Part shown: piece by piece, positions 47,404-55,671 of the stretch
How positions within the stretch are numbered: position 1 is the first letter of the stretch
How the letters are laid out: each line of letters starts with the position of its first letter
Sequence record: NC_070871.1
Source of the DNA: Escherichia phage PGN829.1
DNA: 64,000 bases
Reading direction: 5' to 3' (one strand)
Position numbers and translations under genes: made by a program
Notes under the pieces: model-generated
What the model was told of the DNA's origin: nothing
Database searches by the model: none
Seen by the model: only the letters and a program-made list of their open reading frames with translations

Positions 47404-47436
47404 AAAAAGCCCCTCATTAGAGGGGCTTTAATTTTT
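47404..47436. terminator. bidirectional intrinsic terminator between convergent genes
   Basis: 10-bp stem aaagcccctc/gaggggcttt, loop atta, T tracts on both strands. Confidence 0.7.
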
Positions 47437-47437
47437 A

Positions 47438-47938
47438 CTAAACTAACACCCAGTCTTCAGCTAATATATCTGATTGGGATGGGACCCAAGGCATAAACTG
47501 GTTATCAACAGTTTTGATTCCTAACCATGGACGAGGTTTCAATTCATCAGCAAGTCCTGGACGCTCTAAGCTACTGCTATTCCATTCTTGAGCAGCAACG
47601 TACTCAATGTACATTCCTTTACCATTCCAGCCTTTACGGGCTAGTTTGAAGCCGGATTTGAGAAGCTCTACTGCATGACCAAAGGTGCAACCTTTTTCTA
47701 CGTCATGGTACGCAGTTTCAAATGCAGATTTAGGTGACCAGCTAATATAGCCACGGAACTGAGGATGGTTAGACTTAGAGTCTGGGTACTCTACTAAGTA
47801 ACCTTCTTCTAATGGGTCCTCATTAGCAGGTACATCCCAGCCACGAAGTTTGCAGTATGTTTCTTTGTTCATTCGGAAACCATTTACACACTTGGTTCCG
47901 ATATAATTGGTAAAATGGACTTTAATTTCTTCTGACAT
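47438..47938 (-). CDS. DUF2829 (Tad2-like) domain protein
   Basis: C-terminal ELLKSGFKLARKGWNGKGMYIEY ... FMPWVPSQSDILAEDW matches recalled DUF2829 signature; start at MSEEIK with GAGGT RBS. Confidence 0.5.
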   Translation of the reverse strand: MSEEIKVHFTNYIGTKCVNGFRMNKETYCKLRGWDVPANEDPLEEGYLVEYPDSKSNHPQFRGYISWSPKSAFETAYHDVEKGCTFGHAVELLKSGFKLARKGWNGKGMYIEYVAAQEWNSSSLERPGLADELKPRPWLGIKTVDNQFMPWVPSQSDILAEDWVLV

Positions 47939-47956
47939 AACTACCTCAAATGAGAA

Positions 47957-47988
47957 AGCCCTCACTAGGAGGGCTTGTTTTGTTTTGG
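47957..47988 (+). terminator. hairpin with plus-strand T tract (terminator-like)
   Basis: agccctc-acta-gagggct followed by GTTTTGTTTTGG on plus strand. Confidence 0.4.
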
Positions 47989-48056
47989 CTTCATGAGCCT
48001 TACCACATGTCGGGTAGTTCAGTACCTTTCGGTAAAAACTACCTTACACTTTTGAA

Positions 48057-48437
48057 TCAGATTGTACAACCACCACCATCACAGGTGTTGTTTTCTGCAA
48101 AGGAAGCCAGAGCTTTAGCAGTCTCTTCTTTCTCATGCAGTACCTGACGTAGCAGGTAACCTTCTAATTCCCAAATCTTATTGAATGCATTTTCATATGC
48201 ATACTGACGGCCTTTTTGCTCATCATAGATAGCTGGGTCAACACAGGCAGATACACCTTCAACTTTGAAGCCATTTTCCAAGATGATAATGCAATAGGTT
48301 ATCAGACCCAGGTTAGCCAAATCATCTGCCGGGAGTGCAGATGGATCAACAAATGCAGACTTCACTGCATCAGCTCCATTAAAATAGTAGACGCTCTTAA
48401 TCTTAGCTTCGATTGCTTCTTTACTTACTGTTGCCAT
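48057..48437 (-). CDS. hypothetical protein (possibly N4 gp49-family)
   Basis: Start at MATVSK with GAGG RBS; family assignment from memory only. Confidence 0.35.
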   Translation of the reverse strand: MATVSKEAIEAKIKSVYYFNGADAVKSAFVDPSALPADDLANLGLITYCIIILENGFKVEGVSACVDPAIYDEQKGRQYAYENAFNKIWELEGYLLRQVLHEKEETAKALASFAENNTCDGGGCTI

Positions 48438-48604
48438 TATTAGCCTCATAGAGTGGTTTGAGTTTGTACTTAAACATGACTGCGTTGTTATAGGCTACGC
48501 TACCTGCAAACACCAAAGACTTGCGTCCTCGATTATCCGTTACCTCATAGGCATACGGGGTTGAGATTAGGTCAATCATATTGATTATCCAATTATTAAT
48601 ACTC

Positions 48605-48643
48605 AAATAAAAAAGTCCCCCAGAGTGACGGCTCCAGGGGACT
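48605..48643 (-). terminator. intrinsic terminator
   Basis: 7-bp stem agtcccc/ggggact with internal pairing, followed on minus strand by a long T tract. Confidence 0.5.
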
Positions 48644-49325
48644 TAGTACTATTTACCCATAGCTGGGAGGCTTTTGGTTCTTACCACGAAGACAGTCCAC
48701 GCTGACCAGGCTTGGGATTGATAGTCCCGTTCCTGTGGTAATTACTCAGGCTAGGATTTAAGGAGTTCCTATTCTCCAGCGAAATTCCCGTCGAAGGGAA
48801 TAACAATACAATAGCAGCCACTGGACTGTCTTACCAGTGTTGTCTTTAGAGTGCGGTGCAATCAGGACTATGTTACTGCTAAATAGGTGAGTCATGCCAG
48901 ACTCTAACTGGCTCCTTCTTCGCAATCCTTACATACCCCTACATAATTATTGCGTTAAGCTTTTTTGTTTAAGTTTAAGTGAAGGCGTTCTTGCTGACTC
49001 ATAATAGGGTGGGCGTTTGACGAATGACTAGTTCGTTACTACCCATTTGCCATAAGTACCTGGCGACTTGGGTTTGAGGTGGGAGTCCGAGTCCTGTACA
49101 GCCTTACCGTTAACACATTGGCAGCGTATCTAGAATTGCACTTCCGGCAACTGGATTTAACTGTTACACCTCAAATATGGTAGGGGCGTCCAGAAGTCTC
49201 ATCTGGTACTTACGCCGTCGTATGGTTACGACTTACCCCCATAATTCTTCCAATTCAGAGTAGCACTGTCACGGTAGGTGCTTTAAATGCCGGGAAACAT
49301 TTAAATATACAATGCTACTTTGAAT

Positions 49326-49448
49326 TGGTTATCAGTGAAGGATTCGAACCTCCGGTTGGAGTCTATAGCTTACCGCAGCAGCCCTCCAATCTAGCGGTGT
49401 CACACTTAGTCCAAACTTGAACATGTCAAGCCATCTCGTGCAACTGAT
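49326..49448 (-). ncRNA. tRNA-like element 1 (T-arm, acceptor, encoded CCA; non-canonical length)
   Basis: Minus strand GGAGG-TTCGAAT-CCTTC T-arm, 3' ACTGATA-A-CCA; perfect 5' partner TATCAGT lies 124 nt upstream; no canonical cloverleaf found by hand. Confidence 0.3.
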
Positions 49449-49450
49449 AA

Positions 49451-49516
49451 TTGGTTCCGGCGTCTGGACTCGAACCAGAACACTCATGCCGTGCACGGCA
49501 CTAGTACCTACACCGG
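49451..49516 (-). ncRNA. tRNA-like element 2 (T-arm, acceptor, encoded CCA; too short for a canonical tRNA)
   Basis: TCTGG-TTCGAGT-CCAGA T-arm, acceptor TCCGGTG/CGCCGGA, 3' A-CCA; 66 nt; 2 nt from element 1. Confidence 0.3.
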
Positions 49517-49697
49517 AATAAATTGCCAGGGATTCCACCTGGCTCCATCTGTTTTTAAAGTCACTCAGATATCGTCTGGACTTGTTGTGGAGTGACGCAC
49601 CACCTCACTCTTAAATGTTAACCCATTCCCAGCCCCACAACACACGCTACGGTTAAGATTATTGCGCATGGTGTATGGTCTTGCTGGTCACAACGGA

Positions 49698-49780
49698 AAG
49701 AGCACTTGCGGAGTCGAACCGCCTTGTCTTCTAGAGCTTTCGCATATAACTAATCGCTAGTCTACGTCACCCGTAATGCT
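49698..49780 (-). ncRNA. tRNA-like element 3 (T-arm plus 7-bp acceptor, no CCA)
   Basis: GGCGG-TTCGACT-CCGCA T-arm; acceptor GAGCATT/AGTGCTC; 83 nt; no anticodon arm found by hand. Confidence 0.25.
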
Positions 49781-50475
49781 CTTTCCTGTTATGTTCCCTG
49801 ACTTATTAATCACACCTCAGGGACGCAGTGCGCCGAATTTGTTTACAAGGAATCGGAAGACCTTGCTGACTTACAGGCTATTACGCCGCCATCAGAATAA
49901 CATCATCGTTTGCATTTATGTAATTGGTTCGTTTCTAAAAAACCGCATAATCGCTTACGAAAACTATCAAAGAGTACACTAAGCACAGGTAGCTATCCTG
50001 CCGTCTTCTCTACCTACACCGGCTACAGTGTAGACCTCCGCACGTTAGCTTAATATACTCATTGATAGGATGTTATAATAGGGGAGGGAGGACGAGTCCC
50101 TCTTTACCCTATGATTTAGTTTACACGTAAGACCTAACATTTCAATGCTGGATGAATAGAGTAATGAACTATCCGACATTAATGGTTAATGTTGTGCTCA
50201 GCATGAGCGTTAGTTGATAAGGGATCTGAAGCCTTATCCCAAAGATACTAACCTTTGGGATATAGCCTAAGATTCAGAAATGGCCACTATAGGGAGAGGC
50301 CATTGATTAACCCGAATGTTGCTTTACATTTTCTGTGATAACCCATTCTTAAAATAGTCTGTCTGACGGATGGGGGGCCACCCCTAGCGTCAGTGCCATA
50401 CGGCAAAGATTAAGTTAAGAAAGGTTATGATAGGAGTTCCTATCTCAAAGGATTCTAACAGAACCCTTCACGATA

Positions 50476-50646
50476 TTAACTACTCTTTTTCAGTGCTTCT
50501 ACTTCGCCCTCTTTATACCAAGCATATGGTATTAAGATTTTGCAGCCTTCTGATTCAATGTGAAATGCTTTCTTTCCTTCAACAGGTTCTCCACCCATGA
50601 AAGAACTAATCTTCCCATTGAGCCAGTGAATAGTAAATTTGTTCAT
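50476..50646 (-). CDS. small ORF (56 aa), hypothetical
   Basis: Own translation: ATG at 50646 with GAGG RBS, MNKFTIHWLNGK...; below the track length cutoff. Confidence 0.3.
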   Translation of the reverse strand: MNKFTIHWLNGKISSFMGGEPVEGKKAFHIESEGCKILIPYAWYKEGEVEALKKSS

Positions 50647-50877
50647 ATTAGCCTCAGTTGAACCAATCCCCTTCGGAGAGTATTAAAGGGGACTGGTTCG
50701 GTTGTTGTTATTCTGGCGGCTTGTCACCACCGTGTTTACCACTGCATTTCCACAGGATAATGACAGTGATGATAAAAGCTATGTATGGAGCCGACACGTC
50801 TATAATCCTGACCAGTAGTAGCATCAGGACTATAAACACTACCACACCTAGCAGCAGCTTCTGAGCCACCTACCAAA

Positions 50878-51318
50878 TTAACTACGTTTAAGGCCAGCGA
50901 ACAGTGAAGGCTTAGTAGCAGGTTTCTCTGCTGGTTCTTCAGCCTTAACTTCTTCCTGCACAACTTCTTCTTGTGCTTCTGGTTCAGTCACTGCTTCTTC
51001 TTCAGGTTCCGGCGTAGAACTCCCGTTCTGACCACCAGTAGAGGTCTGGGTTTCTTCTTCCTTTACCTCTTCAACCGTTTCTTCCGGTTCCGGTTCTACC
51101 GGACGGTGTTTGGCTTCCTGAGGATTCTTACGAGAACGGCGAGTTTTCTTCTCTACTCCCACGGGTGGAGTATCTTCATGAACCTCTTCGTTGATACCAA
51201 CGGAGGCTGTACCATCTGCATTGATGACAATATTAATATCACCAGCAAGGTTGATTTGATCATCGACATAAGCCTGTACAGCAGCTTCTACTTCGGACTG
51301 GTTCAAAATGATTTGCAT
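50878..51318 (-). CDS. highly acidic protein (Glu/Pro-rich tail)
   Basis: 146 aa with PEPEE-type acidic low-complexity C-terminal half. Confidence 0.45.
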   Translation of the reverse strand: MQIILNQSEVEAAVQAYVDDQINLAGDINIVINADGTASVGINEEVHEDTPPVGVEKKTRRSRKNPQEAKHRPVEPEPEETVEEVKEEETQTSTGGQNGSSTPEPEEEAVTEPEAQEEVVQEEVKAEEPAEKPATKPSLFAGLKRS

Positions 51319-52711: not shown

Positions 52712-53464
52712 TTAAGCGTAGTATTCAGCCAGATGGTCTAAGAGTTTCTGGGCATCATTATCAATGTAAGTCTCAGACTTATCGAACATACCCATTGGGG
52801 AACGTAGACGTTTACCAACAGACTTCTTGGTTGGGCGAGTCTGGAATACGTGCTTATAACCTAAGTCACGTTCTTCTTCGGTAATTTCAAGCATCTTGTT
52901 GCCATACTTCTCCAGCTCTTTAATGTCTACACGCTCTGCGTAAACCACTGTAGAGAAGTAAGCCTCAAGACCATTGTTCTTCAGAGAACCTTTCACTGGG
53001 ATGAATGTTTTAATCACACCAGCAGCTTCGTCGAGTTCATCTTTGGCATGGGCAGTAATAATTACTGGCTTACCAAATTTAACAACTTTCTGTTGCAGCA
53101 GTATTTTAAAGAACTGTGCAAAATCTCCCCATGCCTTCTGAGTATTAGCAGATGGCAGTACATACTGAGATTCCAGCATATCCATCATGAAGGTAGCAGA
53201 GTCGATAATGATTCCATCAACATCGTCTGCCATTTCACCACCTGGGGATGCAACATCAAATGCTTCCCAAATCTGATATGGGTCTTCAATGTTGTAGGTA
53301 TTAAACTTGTTACGGAAAGGTAGACGTTTACCTGCTTCAGTATTCAGATAGAGCCAGCGTTCCTGGTTCCTGATGTTACGCAGTGATGCTGATTTACCAC
53401 TCGCTGAGAATCCTGCAATCAGGATTAGCTGAGTGTTCATATCATTGGAGATTTCTTCGGACAT
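52712..53464 (-). CDS. RecA-fold ATPase (AAA_24 / Sak4-like recombination protein)
   Basis: Walker A GFSASGKS, Walker B-like IIIDSATF; about 250 aa. Confidence 0.5.
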   Translation of the reverse strand: MSEEISNDMNTQLILIAGFSASGKSASLRNIRNQERWLYLNTEAGKRLPFRNKFNTYNIEDPYQIWEAFDVASPGGEMADDVDGIIIDSATFMMDMLESQYVLPSANTQKAWGDFAQFFKILLQQKVVKFGKPVIITAHAKDELDEAAGVIKTFIPVKGSLKNNGLEAYFSTVVYAERVDIKELEKYGNKMLEITEEERDLGYKHVFQTRPTKKSVGKRLRSPMGMFDKSETYIDNDAQKLLDHLAEYYA

Positions 53465-53520: not shown

Positions 53521-55671
53521 TTATTTGCCAGCGTAGCGTTTAGCTACAGTGACCATTACGGTTGCATTCAATTCATCATCCGGCAATGGATTAGCCAGTT
53601 TCTTATTGAATGTGTGGACGGCTTGCTGTACTTGGGCAAAGTCCCAACCACTGTCAACCAATGCCAGTGCGTACTTAATCATTTGATTATTACGATTACC
53701 GGAGGCAATACGACTAGCGAACCAACGCTCCAGATTATCCAACGACTGTACTTCCTTCATCTGGTTCTGGAACTGCTCGTTCTTACTAGTACGAGGAATA
53801 AAGTCACGCACATCTAACAGATTCGCATCAAGATTGTAATGATAGGAACCAGTCTCACAGGACATCCACTTCTTGGCTCGTTGGTTAGCTGACTCATCCG
53901 TTTCGAATGGTAGCCAAGCCATAACATTATTCATGAACTCTTTGTATTCCTCAGTGTCGAGGTGTAACTCATAGTTCATTGGAATAATCAGACGGAAGCG
54001 GTTCTCTTCATCAGTATGACGCTTGGTGGTATAGGTCATGAACTTATATTCCTTCATCAGTTCATGGCACGTATGCAGAGGTACTCCACCATCACAGTCA
54101 ATAACAATCATGTTAAATCCTGGGATAACATTCTCTTCAGAACGATGTCCATTCTTCATGTGATGGTTTACCCAGTGCATACCTGGAGCTTGGGTTAATA
54201 CATGCAACTGGTCGAACGGTACACGTTCACCAATGTAGTCATAAGCAAAGCTATCACTATACGCCACAATCATCTCATTGATGTCAGTCTCTTTAAGAGT
54301 CTCACCACGGAAGAACTCAATACCCTCATTGAAGGTCTTCTTAATGATGATGTGCTGTTTGTAACCCCATGCAGTAGCAAGAGTCATCATCTCATTACGA
54401 GCTGCATTACCACTCTTATAGAATGGCAAAGACTCCAGTAAGTCAGCATGAGTTACTTCTTTACCTACAGAGGCAATGTACTTAGCCAGTTTCACATAGG
54501 CTTTTTCACGATTGAGGATTGTCTGGAATGCTGCCCCAGATTCCTCTACAAGCAGAATTGCTTGTTTAAGGTGAGCCATCTCAATAAATGAACTCTGGTC
54601 AACAAATGCCAGTGCACCTGCCAGCTTAAGAGCCTTGAAGTAACGATGGGAGATTTCAGCCTTACGAATTTCTTCGTGGTCAGCCATAGCTTCTGCTTGT
54701 TTCTCACAATCAATCTTGTAAGTAATAAGAGCAATGCCCACAGCATCTTCTACAACCATCTTGAAGCCAAACAGGTTTGGGTCAGCCAGACTATGGAAGT
54801 GATTAGCCCACTTGCCAAGAGATTGTACGTTATCCTGTTTAATCAGGTTACGGTAGATTTCTTCCGGAGTCAGTGTTGCATGTGCTCGCTTGTCTAAATG
54901 CCCGATAGCAAACAAGCAGCGACGTGCATACCCTGTATCGAGGAAGTCATAGAACTGATCTTCGGTCTGACCACCATCCAGCAGCTTACTCGGAGTACCA
55001 AACAGCAGCAGGTTAGTTGGAGTCTTACCATCCAGTTCTTCACCACGAACACTTTCAGCAGTATTCTTGGTCAGCTTCTGCTTAACCTTACCTTGGTCAT
55101 ATAGCTCCAGGAACAGAGTTAATACATCAGAGTTAGCCAGCAGATTTGAACCAATTTCATCAATCTGAAGATTGATTGAACCACACCCAGCCATTAACAG
55201 TTTATGACGCAGTTGTTTAACTGCTGGTGGAGTACCAGAGTCAAACGTAAACGGATATGCTCCGGCACGTTTATACTCTGCTTCAACTTTATCAAACTCT
55301 TCCTGCTGGTCAGTACCTTGACGTGCAGAACGTTCGTTAGCAATCTTCCATAAACGGTCATTTGCAATGACGGGCATGGTGTCTTCCATAAAACGTTTAC
55401 GGAAGCCAGTCATGAACCCATCTTCGATGATATTTACTGAGTGACCTTTACCGAAACCAGATGTAGCCAACGCTATAGCGTAGATGTTTACCGGCAGGTC
55501 ACCACGGTCTTTAGTTACAATGGTTGCACCCATGCAGGATGCCATTTTAGCCAAGAAGTAGGCTACTTCGACACGGAAGAATCCCCTGTCATTGTTCTGA
55601 GTACGGTTACACAGTACATCAACAATCTCTTCAATAGCATGATGGTGGGTTACACCTGTAAGGTCAATCAT
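53521..55671 (-). CDS. putative DNA primase / replication initiation protein
   Basis: 716 aa; C-terminal acidic motif IVIDCDGG and VHTFNKKLANPLPDDELN; placed between SSB and polymerase. Confidence 0.45.
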   Translation of the reverse strand: MIDLTGVTHHHAIEEIVDVLCNRTQNNDRGFFRVEVAYFLAKMASCMGATIVTKDRGDLPVNIYAIALATSGFGKGHSVNIIEDGFMTGFRKRFMEDTMPVIANDRLWKIANERSARQGTDQQEEFDKVEAEYKRAGAYPFTFDSGTPPAVKQLRHKLLMAGCGSINLQIDEIGSNLLANSDVLTLFLELYDQGKVKQKLTKNTAESVRGEELDGKTPTNLLLFGTPSKLLDGGQTEDQFYDFLDTGYARRCLFAIGHLDKRAHATLTPEEIYRNLIKQDNVQSLGKWANHFHSLADPNLFGFKMVVEDAVGIALITYKIDCEKQAEAMADHEEIRKAEISHRYFKALKLAGALAFVDQSSFIEMAHLKQAILLVEESGAAFQTILNREKAYVKLAKYIASVGKEVTHADLLESLPFYKSGNAARNEMMTLATAWGYKQHIIIKKTFNEGIEFFRGETLKETDINEMIVAYSDSFAYDYIGERVPFDQLHVLTQAPGMHWVNHHMKNGHRSEENVIPGFNMIVIDCDGGVPLHTCHELMKEYKFMTYTTKRHTDEENRFRLIIPMNYELHLDTEEYKEFMNNVMAWLPFETDESANQRAKKWMSCETGSYHYNLDANLLDVRDFIPRTSKNEQFQNQMKEVQSLDNLERWFASRIASGNRNNQMIKYALALVDSGWDFAQVQQAVHTFNKKLANPLPDDELNATVMVTVAKRYAGK

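What the first reader, a model, noticed from the sequence alone, without database searches (positions are those of the whole stretch)
47404..47990. DUF2829 (Tad2-like) candidate anti-defense gene bracketed by hairpins beside the vRNAP gene
The C-terminal 75 aa (LLKSGFKLARKGWNGKGMYIEY ... FMPWVPSQSDILAEDW) match what I recall of DUF2829, the family that includes the Thoeris anti-defense protein Tad2, which sequesters gcADPR-type signals. The gene sits between a strong bidirectional terminator (47404-47436) and a second hairpin with a T tract (47957-47988). That moron-like layout suggests an accessory insertion between the vRNAP gene and the replication operon. The roughly 95-aa N-terminal extension is unassigned.
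Basis: partly seen in the sequence, partly recalled or inferred. Interest (0 to 1): 0.65.

Follow-up and report, generated by a model that had tools for sequence, protein, structure and literature searches.

The report
N4 gp49-type two-domain Tad2 sponge gene
This is the conserved N4 gp49 gene of an N4-like coliphage, most likely a decoy protein that soaks up bacterial alarm molecules; that much is already annotated, but its uncharacterised front half travels almost only with such decoy proteins and deserves a test.

Summary
A 166-aa gene lies on the minus strand at 47438-47938. Its C-terminal 82 residues are a clear Tad2-like (DUF2829, PF11195) domain, and conserved hairpins flank it.

The "moron-like insertion" reading does not hold. 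The window is a Gamaleyavirus (N4-like). Phage N4 has the orthologue, gp49 (75% identical), at the same place, convergent with the vRNAP gene. The downstream hairpin is the vRNAP/gp49 convergent terminator, conserved even in N4. GC content matches the genome.

The upstream neighbour (48057-48449) is the orthologue of N4 gp48, an experimentally shown Acb4 cyclic-nucleotide sponge. Both genes lie in the published anti-signalling hotspot of N4-like phages, between the primase and vRNAP genes.

All four main ligand contacts of SPO1 Tad2 are identical here. The most likely mechanism is therefore sequestration of TIR-derived ADPR signals. This is inferred, not tested.

The unassigned N-terminal ~72-aa domain has no Pfam or PDB match. 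It is homologous to the N-terminal domain of RyR Tad, whose function is unknown. Among 144 representative proteins, nearly all its Pfam-recognised partners are sponge families: Sequestin 48, Tad2 41, Acb4 20, Acb2/Tad1 4. It may be an unrecognised sponge or a sponge-assembly module.

The finding as stated is largely already annotated. Only the N-domain is new.

The parts
47438..47938 (-). CDS of 166 aa plus stop codon. It is the orthologue of phage N4 gp49, a two-domain protein: a sponge-associated N-domain followed by a Tad2-like domain.
   Evidence: ORF. (75% identity to N4 gp49 at the syntenic position). (1595 homologous clusters, more than 120 of them full-length two-domain proteins).
47943..47947 (-). 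Ribosome-binding site GAGGT, 4 nt upstream of the ATG at 47938.
   Evidence: Read directly. It is invariant in five Gamaleyavirus sequences.
47699..47914 (-). N-terminal domain, aa about 9-80, a beta-rich fold with two helices. It has no Pfam family. It is homologous to the N-terminal domain of RyR Tad (Pectobacterium phage CB1 gp68).
47441..47689 (-). Tad2-like (PF11195/DUF2829) domain, aa 84-166. The canonical pocket residues are W104, N105, W151 and D157.
   Evidence: The residue mapping uses (Yirmiya et al. bioRxiv 10.1101/2023.05.01.538930) and the invariant columns.
47528..47602 (-). Hypervariable insertion of the Tad2 domain, aa 113-137. It is the equivalent of the beta2-beta3 insertion that forms the second (cyclic nucleotide) pocket in HgmTad2 and, by AlphaFold3 model plus mutagenesis, in MoTad2.
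   Evidence: Column conservation is 0.41, against 0.64-0.69 for the rest of the protein.
47406..47429 (.). Bidirectional intrinsic-terminator-like hairpin at the convergent junction between the vRNAP gene (plus strand) and the gp49-like gene (minus strand).
   Evidence: Conserved in PhAPEC5, Mimir124, Moonfish, 24-32N and N4, with a loop flip between ATTA and TAAT. Annotated as a terminator on both strands in NC_024786.
47956..47976 (.). Second hairpin, 18 nt upstream of the start codon. It has an A tract on one side and a T tract on the other. It may be an attenuator/terminator or a 5'-UTR stem-loop; which one is not resolved.
   Evidence: Annotated as a terminator in PhAPEC5.
47939..48056 (-). 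Conserved 118-nt spacer between the Acb4-like gene and the Tad2-like gene. It folds into three hairpins and stays attached to the Tad2-like gene in relatives.
   Evidence: Nearly invariant across 5 Gamaleyavirus genomes. MFE -38 kcal/mol, z -3.9. No Rfam family. Absent from N4, where gp48 and gp49 overlap.
48057..48449 (-). Upstream neighbour, an Acb4-family (PF13876) gene and the orthologue of N4 gp48. The true start is probably the ATG at 48437.
   Evidence: PF13876 E 3.2e-25. 47% identity to N4 gp48. N4 gp48 is Acb4, necessary and sufficient to trigger Panoptes (PMC12657230). PF13876 is the Acb4 family (PMC11722364).

Best explanation
The gene is the Gamaleyavirus orthologue of phage N4 gp49, a fixed gene of this phage lineage. 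With the Acb4-family gene just upstream (the N4 gp48 orthologue), it forms the vRNAP-proximal end of the anti-signalling locus of N4-like phages.

Proposed mechanism. The C-terminal Tad2 domain assembles into a homo-oligomer, a tetramer in solved Tad2 proteins. Its interface pockets bind and sequester ADP-ribose-derived signals made by bacterial TIR (Thoeris) proteins: 3'cADPR/gcADPR, His-ADPR or N7-cADPR. The effector is then never switched on. The hypervariable insertion may add a second pocket for cyclic nucleotides.

The N-terminal domain is a separate, equally conserved module. It most likely either staples protomers together, as the homologous domain does by strand swap in the RyR Tad crystal, or binds a further ligand.

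What is shown: family membership, predicted fold, pocket-residue identity, synteny and conservation. What is inferred: oligomer state, ligand identity and in vivo anti-defence activity.
For: Family and fold.
- PF11195 at 86 bits.
- Solved Tad2 chains at E 3e-21.
- The predicted fold matches 24 Tad2 chains, with target-normalised TM-score up to 0.84 and probability 1.0.

Pocket residues.
- The SPO1 Tad2 main contacts W25, N26, W73 and D79 correspond to W104, N105, W151 and D157. All are identical here and invariant in 42 two-domain homologues.
- The secondary contacts I63, T65, D67 and S76 are identical. T78 becomes S and H71 becomes M.

Synteny and locus.
- The N4 gp49 orthologue sits at the same position.
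- The neighbour belongs to the Acb4 family.
- Fedorova et al. (bioRxiv 10.64898/2026.06.04.730250) describe the primase-to-vRNAP interval of N4-like phages as a hotspot that contains Tad2, Tad3, Acb4 and Sequestin.

N-domain.
- It is homologous to the RyR Tad N-domain, which forms a strand-swapped dimer in the crystal.
- Nearly all its Pfam-recognised partners are sponge families.
Against: - No N4-type two-domain Tad2 has been assayed. None of the Tad2 homologues listed in Table S2 of Hadary et al. carries this N-domain.
- One of five Tad2 homologues in the founding study, and several in the later screen, inhibited none of the systems tested. Family membership therefore does not guarantee activity.
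- An 80-aa domain sits directly in front of helix alpha1, which mediates tetramerisation in SPO1 Tad2. It could change the assembly.
- Ligand specificity cannot be read from sequence. Tad2 members differ: 3'cADPR, His-ADPR, N7-cADPR, cGG/cGAMP, cUMP/cCMP.
- The homologous N-domain of RyR Tad showed no anti-Thoeris I activity on its own.
Confidence: 0.75

Rival explanations
1. The protein is a sponge, but not mainly against Thoeris. Its relevant ligands in E. coli are cyclic nucleotides from CBASS or Pycsar, bound in the insertion-domain pocket or by the N-domain. The canonical ADPR pocket is secondary.
For: HgmTad2, SptTad2 and MoTad2 bind cGG/cGAMP or cUMP/cCMP in a second pocket built from the insertion. 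The closest solved relative is MoTad2, at E 6e-22. The insertion is hypervariable, as expected for a specificity element. The partner gene is an anti-CBASS sponge.
Against: The canonical pocket residues are invariant across the two-domain family, which argues that this pocket is in use. The insertion here (about 25 aa) is the same length as that of SPO1 Tad2 (residues 36-59), which binds no cyclic nucleotides, and shorter than that of HgmTad2 (residues 32-72).
Confidence: 0.15
2. The gene is a recently acquired moron: an autonomous accessory cassette with its own terminators, inserted between the vRNAP gene and the replication genes.
For: Hairpins lie on both sides. Homologues occur in unrelated phages of Vibrio, Acidovorax, Pasteurella and Bacillus, so the gene is mobile on long time scales. 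The surrounding interval is a gene-acquisition hotspot.
Against: The orthologue is present at the same position in N4 and in all Gamaleyavirus and Klebsiella N4-like relatives examined. GC content equals the genome's. The downstream hairpin is the conserved vRNAP terminator. No promoter-like site was found in the spacer.
Confidence: 0.03
3. The protein is an anti-CRISPR of the AcrIIA7 type, as some automated annotations of the orthologues say.
For: AcrIIA7 is a DUF2829 protein (8kbi and 9kzr hits). The orthologues in phages Mimir124 and 24-32N are labelled 'anti-CRISPR protein'.
Against: Li et al. could not reproduce Cas9 inhibition by AcrIIA7/HgmTad2, in vitro or in vivo, and showed that it is a sponge. 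From general knowledge, E. coli does not carry type II-A CRISPR-Cas.
Confidence: 0.02
4. The protein has a housekeeping role in phage transcription or replication. In this reading the N-domain is a Tudor/SH3-like domain that contacts RNA polymerase or DNA, and the Tad2 fold has been co-opted.
Confidence: 0.05

Closest known systems
Phage N4 gp49 (YP_950527, 'DUF2829 domain-containing protein')
   Same: Orthologue. It is 75% identical overall, 89% in the N-domain and 83-86% in the Tad2 core. It has the same two-domain architecture and the same position and orientation next to the vRNAP gene, downstream of the Acb4 gene.
   Different: In N4, gp48 and gp49 overlap (ATGA), with no spacer. Here a conserved 118-nt structured spacer separates them. 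The insertion region differs in length and sequence. I found no experimental work on N4 gp49.
Tad2 sponges: SPO1 Gp34.65 (PDB 8SME/8SMF) and Myroides odoratus prophage Tad2 (8V3E/9EIB)
   Same: Same Pfam family and predicted fold. The main pocket residues are identical. About 40-48% identity over the domain.
   Different: Those proteins are single-domain, about 88-90 aa. This one carries an extra 80-aa N-terminal domain immediately before the tetramerisation helix. Ligand and oligomer state are untested here.
RyR Tad (Pectobacterium phage vB_PatP_CB1 gp68; Fedorova et al. 2026 preprint)
   Same: It has a homologous N-terminal domain (hhalign 96.9%, E 1.9e-10). It is also a two-domain sponge encoded in the same primase-to-vRNAP hotspot of an N4-like phage.
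   Different: Its C-terminal ligand-binding domain is an all-helical RyR Repeat12-like fold, not Tad2. Its N-domain is divergent: about 29% identity to the profile, and it lacks the RGW motif and the N57 motif.
Sponge fusion proteins (Acb4-Tad2 of Pasteurella phage Pm86; Acb4-Sequestin of Pseudomonas phage Ab09 gp59)
   Same: The same design logic: two small modules in one polypeptide within phage anti-signalling loci. The N-domain studied here is itself fused to Acb4 plus Sequestin in Pseudomonas phage inbricus gp38.
   Different: In those proteins both halves are proven sponges. Here the N-terminal half has no demonstrated ligand.
AcrIIA7 / HgmTad2 (PDB 8KBI)
   Same: The same DUF2829 domain.
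   Different: It has a longer insertion domain that binds cGG/cGAMP. The anti-CRISPR activity was not reproducible.

Membership tests
Tad2 / PF11195 (DUF2829) sponge family | The sequence matches the family profile above the curated threshold. | tested here: met
   86.1 bits against a cut-off of 25, E 2.5e-24, profile positions 2-73 of 73.
Tad2 / PF11195 (DUF2829) sponge family | [quoted passage not shown] | tested here: met
   AF2 model with pLDDT 87. Foldseek against 24 Tad2 chains gives probability 1.0 and target-normalised TM-score 0.57-0.84. This is a prediction, not a solved structure.
Tad2 / PF11195 (DUF2829) sponge family | The canonical gcADPR pocket residues (SPO1 W25, N26, W73, D79). 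| tested here: met
   W104, N105, W151 and D157 are identical and invariant in 42 homologues.
Tad2 / PF11195 (DUF2829) sponge family | Homotetramer with pockets at the interfaces of non-dimeric protomers. | not testable with these tools
   No multimer prediction was available. The N-domain precedes the tetramerisation helix, so the assembly may differ.
Tad2 / PF11195 (DUF2829) sponge family | Binds the immune signal without degrading it, and relieves Thoeris (or CBASS/Pycsar) defence. | not testable with these tools
   This needs biochemistry and phage assays. No published test of an N4-type homologue was found.
N4-like anti-signalling hotspot (Fedorova et al. 2026) | Located between the DNA primase and virion RNA polymerase genes of an N4-like phage, alongside other signal inhibitors. 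| tested here: met
   Gene order by ORF size and synteny with N4: primase-sized ORF (53521-55671), Sak4-like gene (52712-53464, AAA_24), then ORFs matching SSB, gp46 and gp47 in size and order, then Acb4, this gene and vRNAP. Definition.
RyR Tad N-terminal domain family (unnamed, no Pfam) | Detectable homology to the N-domain of CB1 gp68. | tested here: met
   hhalign probability 96.9%, E 1.9e-10 over gp68 aa 4-65. The BFVD hit to the Yersinia phage TG1 RyR-domain protein has E 9.7e-5.
RyR Tad N-terminal domain family (unnamed, no Pfam) | Strand-swapped dimerisation through beta1. | not testable with these tools
   Known only from the preprint's crystal structure. That structure is not in the PDB copy searched.
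Moron (autonomous accessory cassette) | Present or absent among close relatives; atypical composition; own promoter and terminator. | tested here: not met
   Present in all relatives checked, including N4. GC 42.1% against 43.0%. Terminator-like hairpins are present, but no promoter-like site lies in the spacer.
AcrIIA7-type anti-CRISPR | Inhibition of Cas9 interference. | not tested
   It shares only the DUF2829 domain. The activity was not reproduced for the founding member.
Acb4 / PF13876 (neighbour gene 48057-48449) | Profile match above threshold and orthology to an experimentally characterised member. | tested here: met
   88.9 bits against a cut-off of 27. 47% identity to N4 gp48, which is Acb4 and triggers Panoptes. 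There is no direct sequence hit to SPO1 Acb4 in the PDB.

The most novel reading that the evidence does not exclude
The N-terminal ~72-aa domain (motif GTK...RGW.P..E.P..EGYLVEY.D...N...GYISWSPK.VFE.AY) is an unrecognised family of immune-signal-binding (sponge) proteins. Alternatively it is a universal strand-swapping assembly module that phages attach to sponges.

It is most often a stand-alone ~73-aa protein. Among 144 representative proteins, its Pfam-recognised partners are, with two single exceptions, the known sponge families Sequestin, Tad2, Acb4 and Acb2/Tad1, plus RyR Tad. This is the same guilt-by-fusion signal that led to the discovery of Sequestin. A Pfam-based screen could not see this domain, because it has no Pfam model.

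N4 gp49 and this gene would then be dual-function inhibitors.
Probability: 0.3. Interest if true: 0.65.

Novelty: new member of a known kind. Interest (0 to 1): 0.38.

Why it matters
The gene itself adds little. It is an orthologue of an already annotated N4 gene, in a locus that a 2026 preprint already calls an anti-signalling hotspot.

The N-terminal domain may matter more. It forms a large family with no Pfam model: 1180 representative clusters at 50% identity. It is present in the model phage N4 and associates almost exclusively with five families of immune-signal sponges. If it binds a signal of its own, it would add a further sponge family and would explain why N4-type Tad2 proteins are twice the usual size. 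If it is an assembly module, it would show how phages build multivalent sponges.

N4 is genetically tractable, and knock-down by CRISPRi-ART has already been used on the neighbouring gp48. Both ideas can therefore be tested directly.

Tried and rejected
- Pfam, PADLOC and PDB sequence searches of the N-domain found nothing, either with the single sequence or with 28 family members.
- Profile comparison of the N-domain with the neighbouring Acb4-like protein showed no relationship (probability 0.2%). The two are not duplicated modules.
- Lockin is unlikely to be the N-domain family. It is described as absent from the INPHARED phage genomes and as a hexameric curved beta structure.
- Tad3-Tad8 are reported to bind TIR domains or Thoeris effectors. 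Their primary paper was not available, so identity with one of them is not formally excluded. However, Fedorova et al. name Tad3 elsewhere and still call this fold 'unknown function'.
- An Rfam scan of the conserved spacer found no family.
- An anti-RBS model looked possible, because GGTAGTT in hairpin 1 repeats at the ribosome-binding site. It is not supported by covariation: Moonfish changes the RBS copy only.
- Net charge does not separate sponge from non-sponge. The N-domain averages -3.2, but SPO1 Tad2 is -5.
- The afdb50 fold library was unavailable.
- The genomic context of two stand-alone N-domain genes showed nucleotide-metabolism neighbours and no adjacent known sponge. It did not settle the question.

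Full report
WHAT IS THERE

On the minus strand, an ORF runs from the ATG at 47938 to a stop at 47438-47440 and encodes 166 aa. A GAGGT ribosome-binding site lies 4 nt upstream. The ORF listing extends the frame to a GTG at 47965, but N4 gp49 and 41 other homologues start at the position of the ATG.

The gene is flanked by two hairpins.
- The hairpin at 47406-47429 has a 10-bp stem, free energy of about -18 kcal/mol and z about -4.8 on either strand, with T runs on both sides.
- The hairpin at 47956-47976 has an 8-bp stem and z about -2.4.

The one correction is that the N-terminal extension is about 83 aa, not about 95.

WHOSE GENOME

The region is 99.3% identical to Escherichia phage UE-S5b and its relatives, and 88-90% identical to PhAPEC5, ECBP1 and Bp4. 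These are all Gamaleyavirus (Schitoviridae, Enquatrovirinae), which are N4-like coliphages.

In phage N4 itself, the gene immediately next to and convergent with vRNAP (gp50) is gp49, a 160-aa 'DUF2829 domain-containing protein'. It is 75% identical to the window protein. The gene before it, gp48, corresponds to the window ORF 48057-48449 at 47% identity.

The hairpin at 47406-47429 is conserved base for base in its stem in N4, PhAPEC5, Mimir124, Moonfish and 24-32N. Only the loop differs, flipping between ATTA and TAAT. It is the junction terminator of two convergent transcription units, not the boundary of an inserted cassette.

Gene GC (42.1%) equals window GC (43.0%). In relatives the variable spots lie beside the gene. 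Small extra ORFs sit between it and the vRNAP stop in Mimir124, Moonfish and 24-32N, and one sits between it and the gp48-like gene in 24-32N. The moron reading is therefore not supported.

THE C-TERMINAL DOMAIN

Residues 85-166 match PF11195 ('Tad2-like', formerly DUF2829) at 86 bits. They match solved Tad2 chains at E 3e-21 for Myroides odoratus Tad2 (8V3E/9EIB) and 1e-13 for SPO1 Tad2.

An AF2 model built from a 42-sequence alignment has pLDDT 87. Its C-terminal half superposes on 24 Tad2 chains with probability 1.0.

Yirmiya et al. (bioRxiv 10.1101/2023.05.01.538930) name W25, N26, W73 and D79 as the main contacts to 1''-3' gcADPR. They name I63, T65, D67, H71, S76 and T78 as secondary or water-mediated contacts. 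I mapped these through the HMMER alignment:
- The main contacts become W104, N105, W151 and D157. All are identical here and invariant in all 42 aligned two-domain homologues.
- I141, T143, D145 and S154 are also identical.
- T78 becomes S156 and H71 becomes M149.

The segment at aa 113-137 is the least conserved part of the protein, with column conservation 0.41 against 0.64-0.69 elsewhere. It corresponds to the insertion that forms a second, cyclic-nucleotide pocket in HgmTad2 and, by AlphaFold3 model plus mutagenesis, in MoTad2.

THE LOCUS

PF13876, which the neighbour matches at E 3e-25, is the Acb4 sponge family (PMC11722364).

Doherty et al. [quoted passage not shown] They show it is necessary and sufficient to trigger the Panoptes system.

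Fedorova et al. (bioRxiv 10.64898/2026.06.04.730250) define the interval between primase and vRNAP in N4-like phages as an anti-signalling hotspot. It contains Tad2, Tad3, Acb4, Sequestin and Bes1/2.

By ORF size and synteny with N4, the window has this order: primase-sized ORF, Sak4-like gene (AAA_24 match), ORFs matching SSB, gp46 and gp47, about 2.4 kb without long ORFs, Acb4-like gene, this gene, then vRNAP. The finding is thus one half of a two-gene sponge pair in a published hotspot.

Public records already label the orthologues 'DUF2829 domain-containing protein', 'Thoeris anti-defense 2-like protein' (Moonfish) or, probably wrongly, 'anti-CRISPR protein'.

THE N-TERMINAL DOMAIN

This is the part that is not yet explained. 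It has no Pfam, PADLOC or PDB sequence match. It matches only function-unknown PHROGs.

It is as conserved as the Tad2 core. Its invariant or near-invariant polar and aromatic residues are K16, R32, W34, E40, E50, Y51, N57, Y64, S66, W67 and K70.

A profile of the domain detects the N-terminal domain of RyR Tad (Pectobacterium phage CB1 gp68) at 96.9% probability and E 1.9e-10. [quoted passage not shown] They report that it is inactive alone against type I Thoeris and that it forms a beta1 strand-swapped dimer in the crystal.

The family is large. It has 1856 clusters at 90% identity and 1180 representatives at 50% identity with E no higher than 1e-3. About half of the members I sampled are stand-alone proteins of about 73 aa.

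Among 144 representatives, the Pfam domains that accompany it are:
- Sequestin (PF21825): 48
- Tad2 (PF11195): 41
- Acb4 (PF13876): 20
- Acb2/Tad1 hairpin (PF24729): 4
- AP2: 1
- HNH: 1

Pseudomonas phage inbricus gp38 is a triple fusion of N-domain, Acb4 and Sequestin.

Tal et al. (bioRxiv 10.1101/2025.07.12.664507) discovered Sequestin from exactly this kind of fusion signal. Their screen used Pfam families, so a domain without a Pfam model was invisible to it.

MECHANISM

Best-supported reading (confidence about 0.75): the Tad2 domain oligomerises and sequesters TIR-derived ADPR signals in its canonical pocket, possibly together with a cyclic nucleotide in the variable insertion. It complements the Acb4 sponge encoded upstream.

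The role of the N-domain is open. The homologous crystal structure favours an assembly or stapling role. Three observations keep an autonomous ligand-binding role alive at about 0.3: the frequency of stand-alone forms, the strong conservation of polar and aromatic residues, and the near-exclusive association with sponge families.

Everything beyond family membership, predicted fold, residue identity and synteny is inference. No oligomer model, ligand docking or assay was possible here.

THE HAIRPINS

Hairpin 2 is part of a 118-nt spacer (47939-48056) that is almost invariant across five Gamaleyavirus genomes, although the flanking genes diverge. The spacer folds into three hairpins with z -3.9. 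It has no Rfam match, and it stays with the Tad2-like gene when another ORF is inserted upstream in 24-32N.

N4 lacks the spacer; there gp48 and gp49 overlap.

Only 18 nt separate hairpin 2 from the start codon, so a promoter cannot lie downstream of it. Either transcription reads through it (attenuation between the Acb4 and Tad2 genes), or it is a 5'-UTR stem-loop of a transcript that starts in the spacer. Its better T tract is on the plus strand, so it could also stop late read-through from the vRNAP gene. I cannot decide between these.

VERDICT

The Tad2 interpretation is supported, and the moron layout is not. The gene is a new member of a known kind, and its orthologues are already annotated, so interest in the finding as stated is modest. 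The uncharacterised, sponge-associated N-domain is the one element worth an experiment.

Noticed in passing
window 48057-48449 (-): The upstream neighbour is an Acb4-family (PF13876) gene, the orthologue of N4 gp48. N4 gp48 is an experimentally shown cyclic-nucleotide sponge that triggers Panoptes. The true start is probably the ATG at 48437 (residue M5 of the listed ORF).
   Followed up: yes
window 47939-48056 (-): A 118-nt spacer is nearly invariant across Gamaleyavirus genomes, although the flanking genes diverge. It folds into three hairpins (z -3.9), one of them with a GAAA loop. It has no Rfam family and is absent from N4. It may be a promoter/5'-UTR or an attenuator element.
   Followed up: partly
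window 48600-50900, junction at 48882-48889 and 49582-49876: ARAGORN finds no tRNA gene in the whole 64-kb window. The nearest relatives (UE-S5b, PBM-2/3) annotate tRNA-Ile, a tRNA-OTHER and tRNA-Cys in this interval. The window lacks the about 156-bp segment that holds the first two. It carries non-homologous sequence where tRNA-Cys would be.
   Followed up: partly
L003 2180-2563 and 3207-3455; L004 2143-2373; L005 2137-2566: Relatives carry extra small ORFs exactly at the terminator between the Tad2-like gene and the vRNAP stop. Phage 24-32N also has one between the Acb4-like and Tad2-like genes. These junctions are the real gene gain/loss spots.
   Followed up: partly
window 47416-47419 and the alignment: The 4-nt loop of the convergent terminator is ATTA in some phages and TAAT in others, while the stem is unchanged. 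This looks like an inversion of the loop.
   Followed up: no
L008 2492-3190 (Pseudomonas phage inbricus gp38): A 232-aa triple fusion: the N-domain studied here (aa 1-72), Acb4 (aa 99-161) and Sequestin (aa 170-227).
   Followed up: yes
L004 2383-3382 and L003 3455-3847: Automated annotation labels both the Tad2-like and the Acb4-like orthologues in Mimir124, and the Acb4-like orthologue in 24-32N, as 'anti-CRISPR protein'. Given the published sponge functions, this is probably a misnomer.
   Followed up: partly
window 49832-49984 (-): Sub-threshold Rfam matches to tmRNA models occur here: permuted tmRNA at 30.7 bits against a gathering score of 47, and beta tmRNA at 22.3 bits. They may be a tRNA-like remnant in the gene-poor interval.
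   Followed up: no
window 48613-48644 (-): The strongest terminator-like hairpin of the region (13 pairs, then TTTTTATTT) lies just upstream, in the direction of transcription, of a 61-aa ORF (48421-48606) that precedes the Acb4-like gene.
   Followed up: no
L009 4001-4225; L012 4001-4222: Stand-alone 73-74-aa N-domain genes in metagenomic phage contigs are the last genes of nucleotide-metabolism operons. One follows a dUTPase gene; another lies between ribonucleotide reductase and glutaredoxin genes. Both are next to oppositely oriented late genes.
   Followed up: partly
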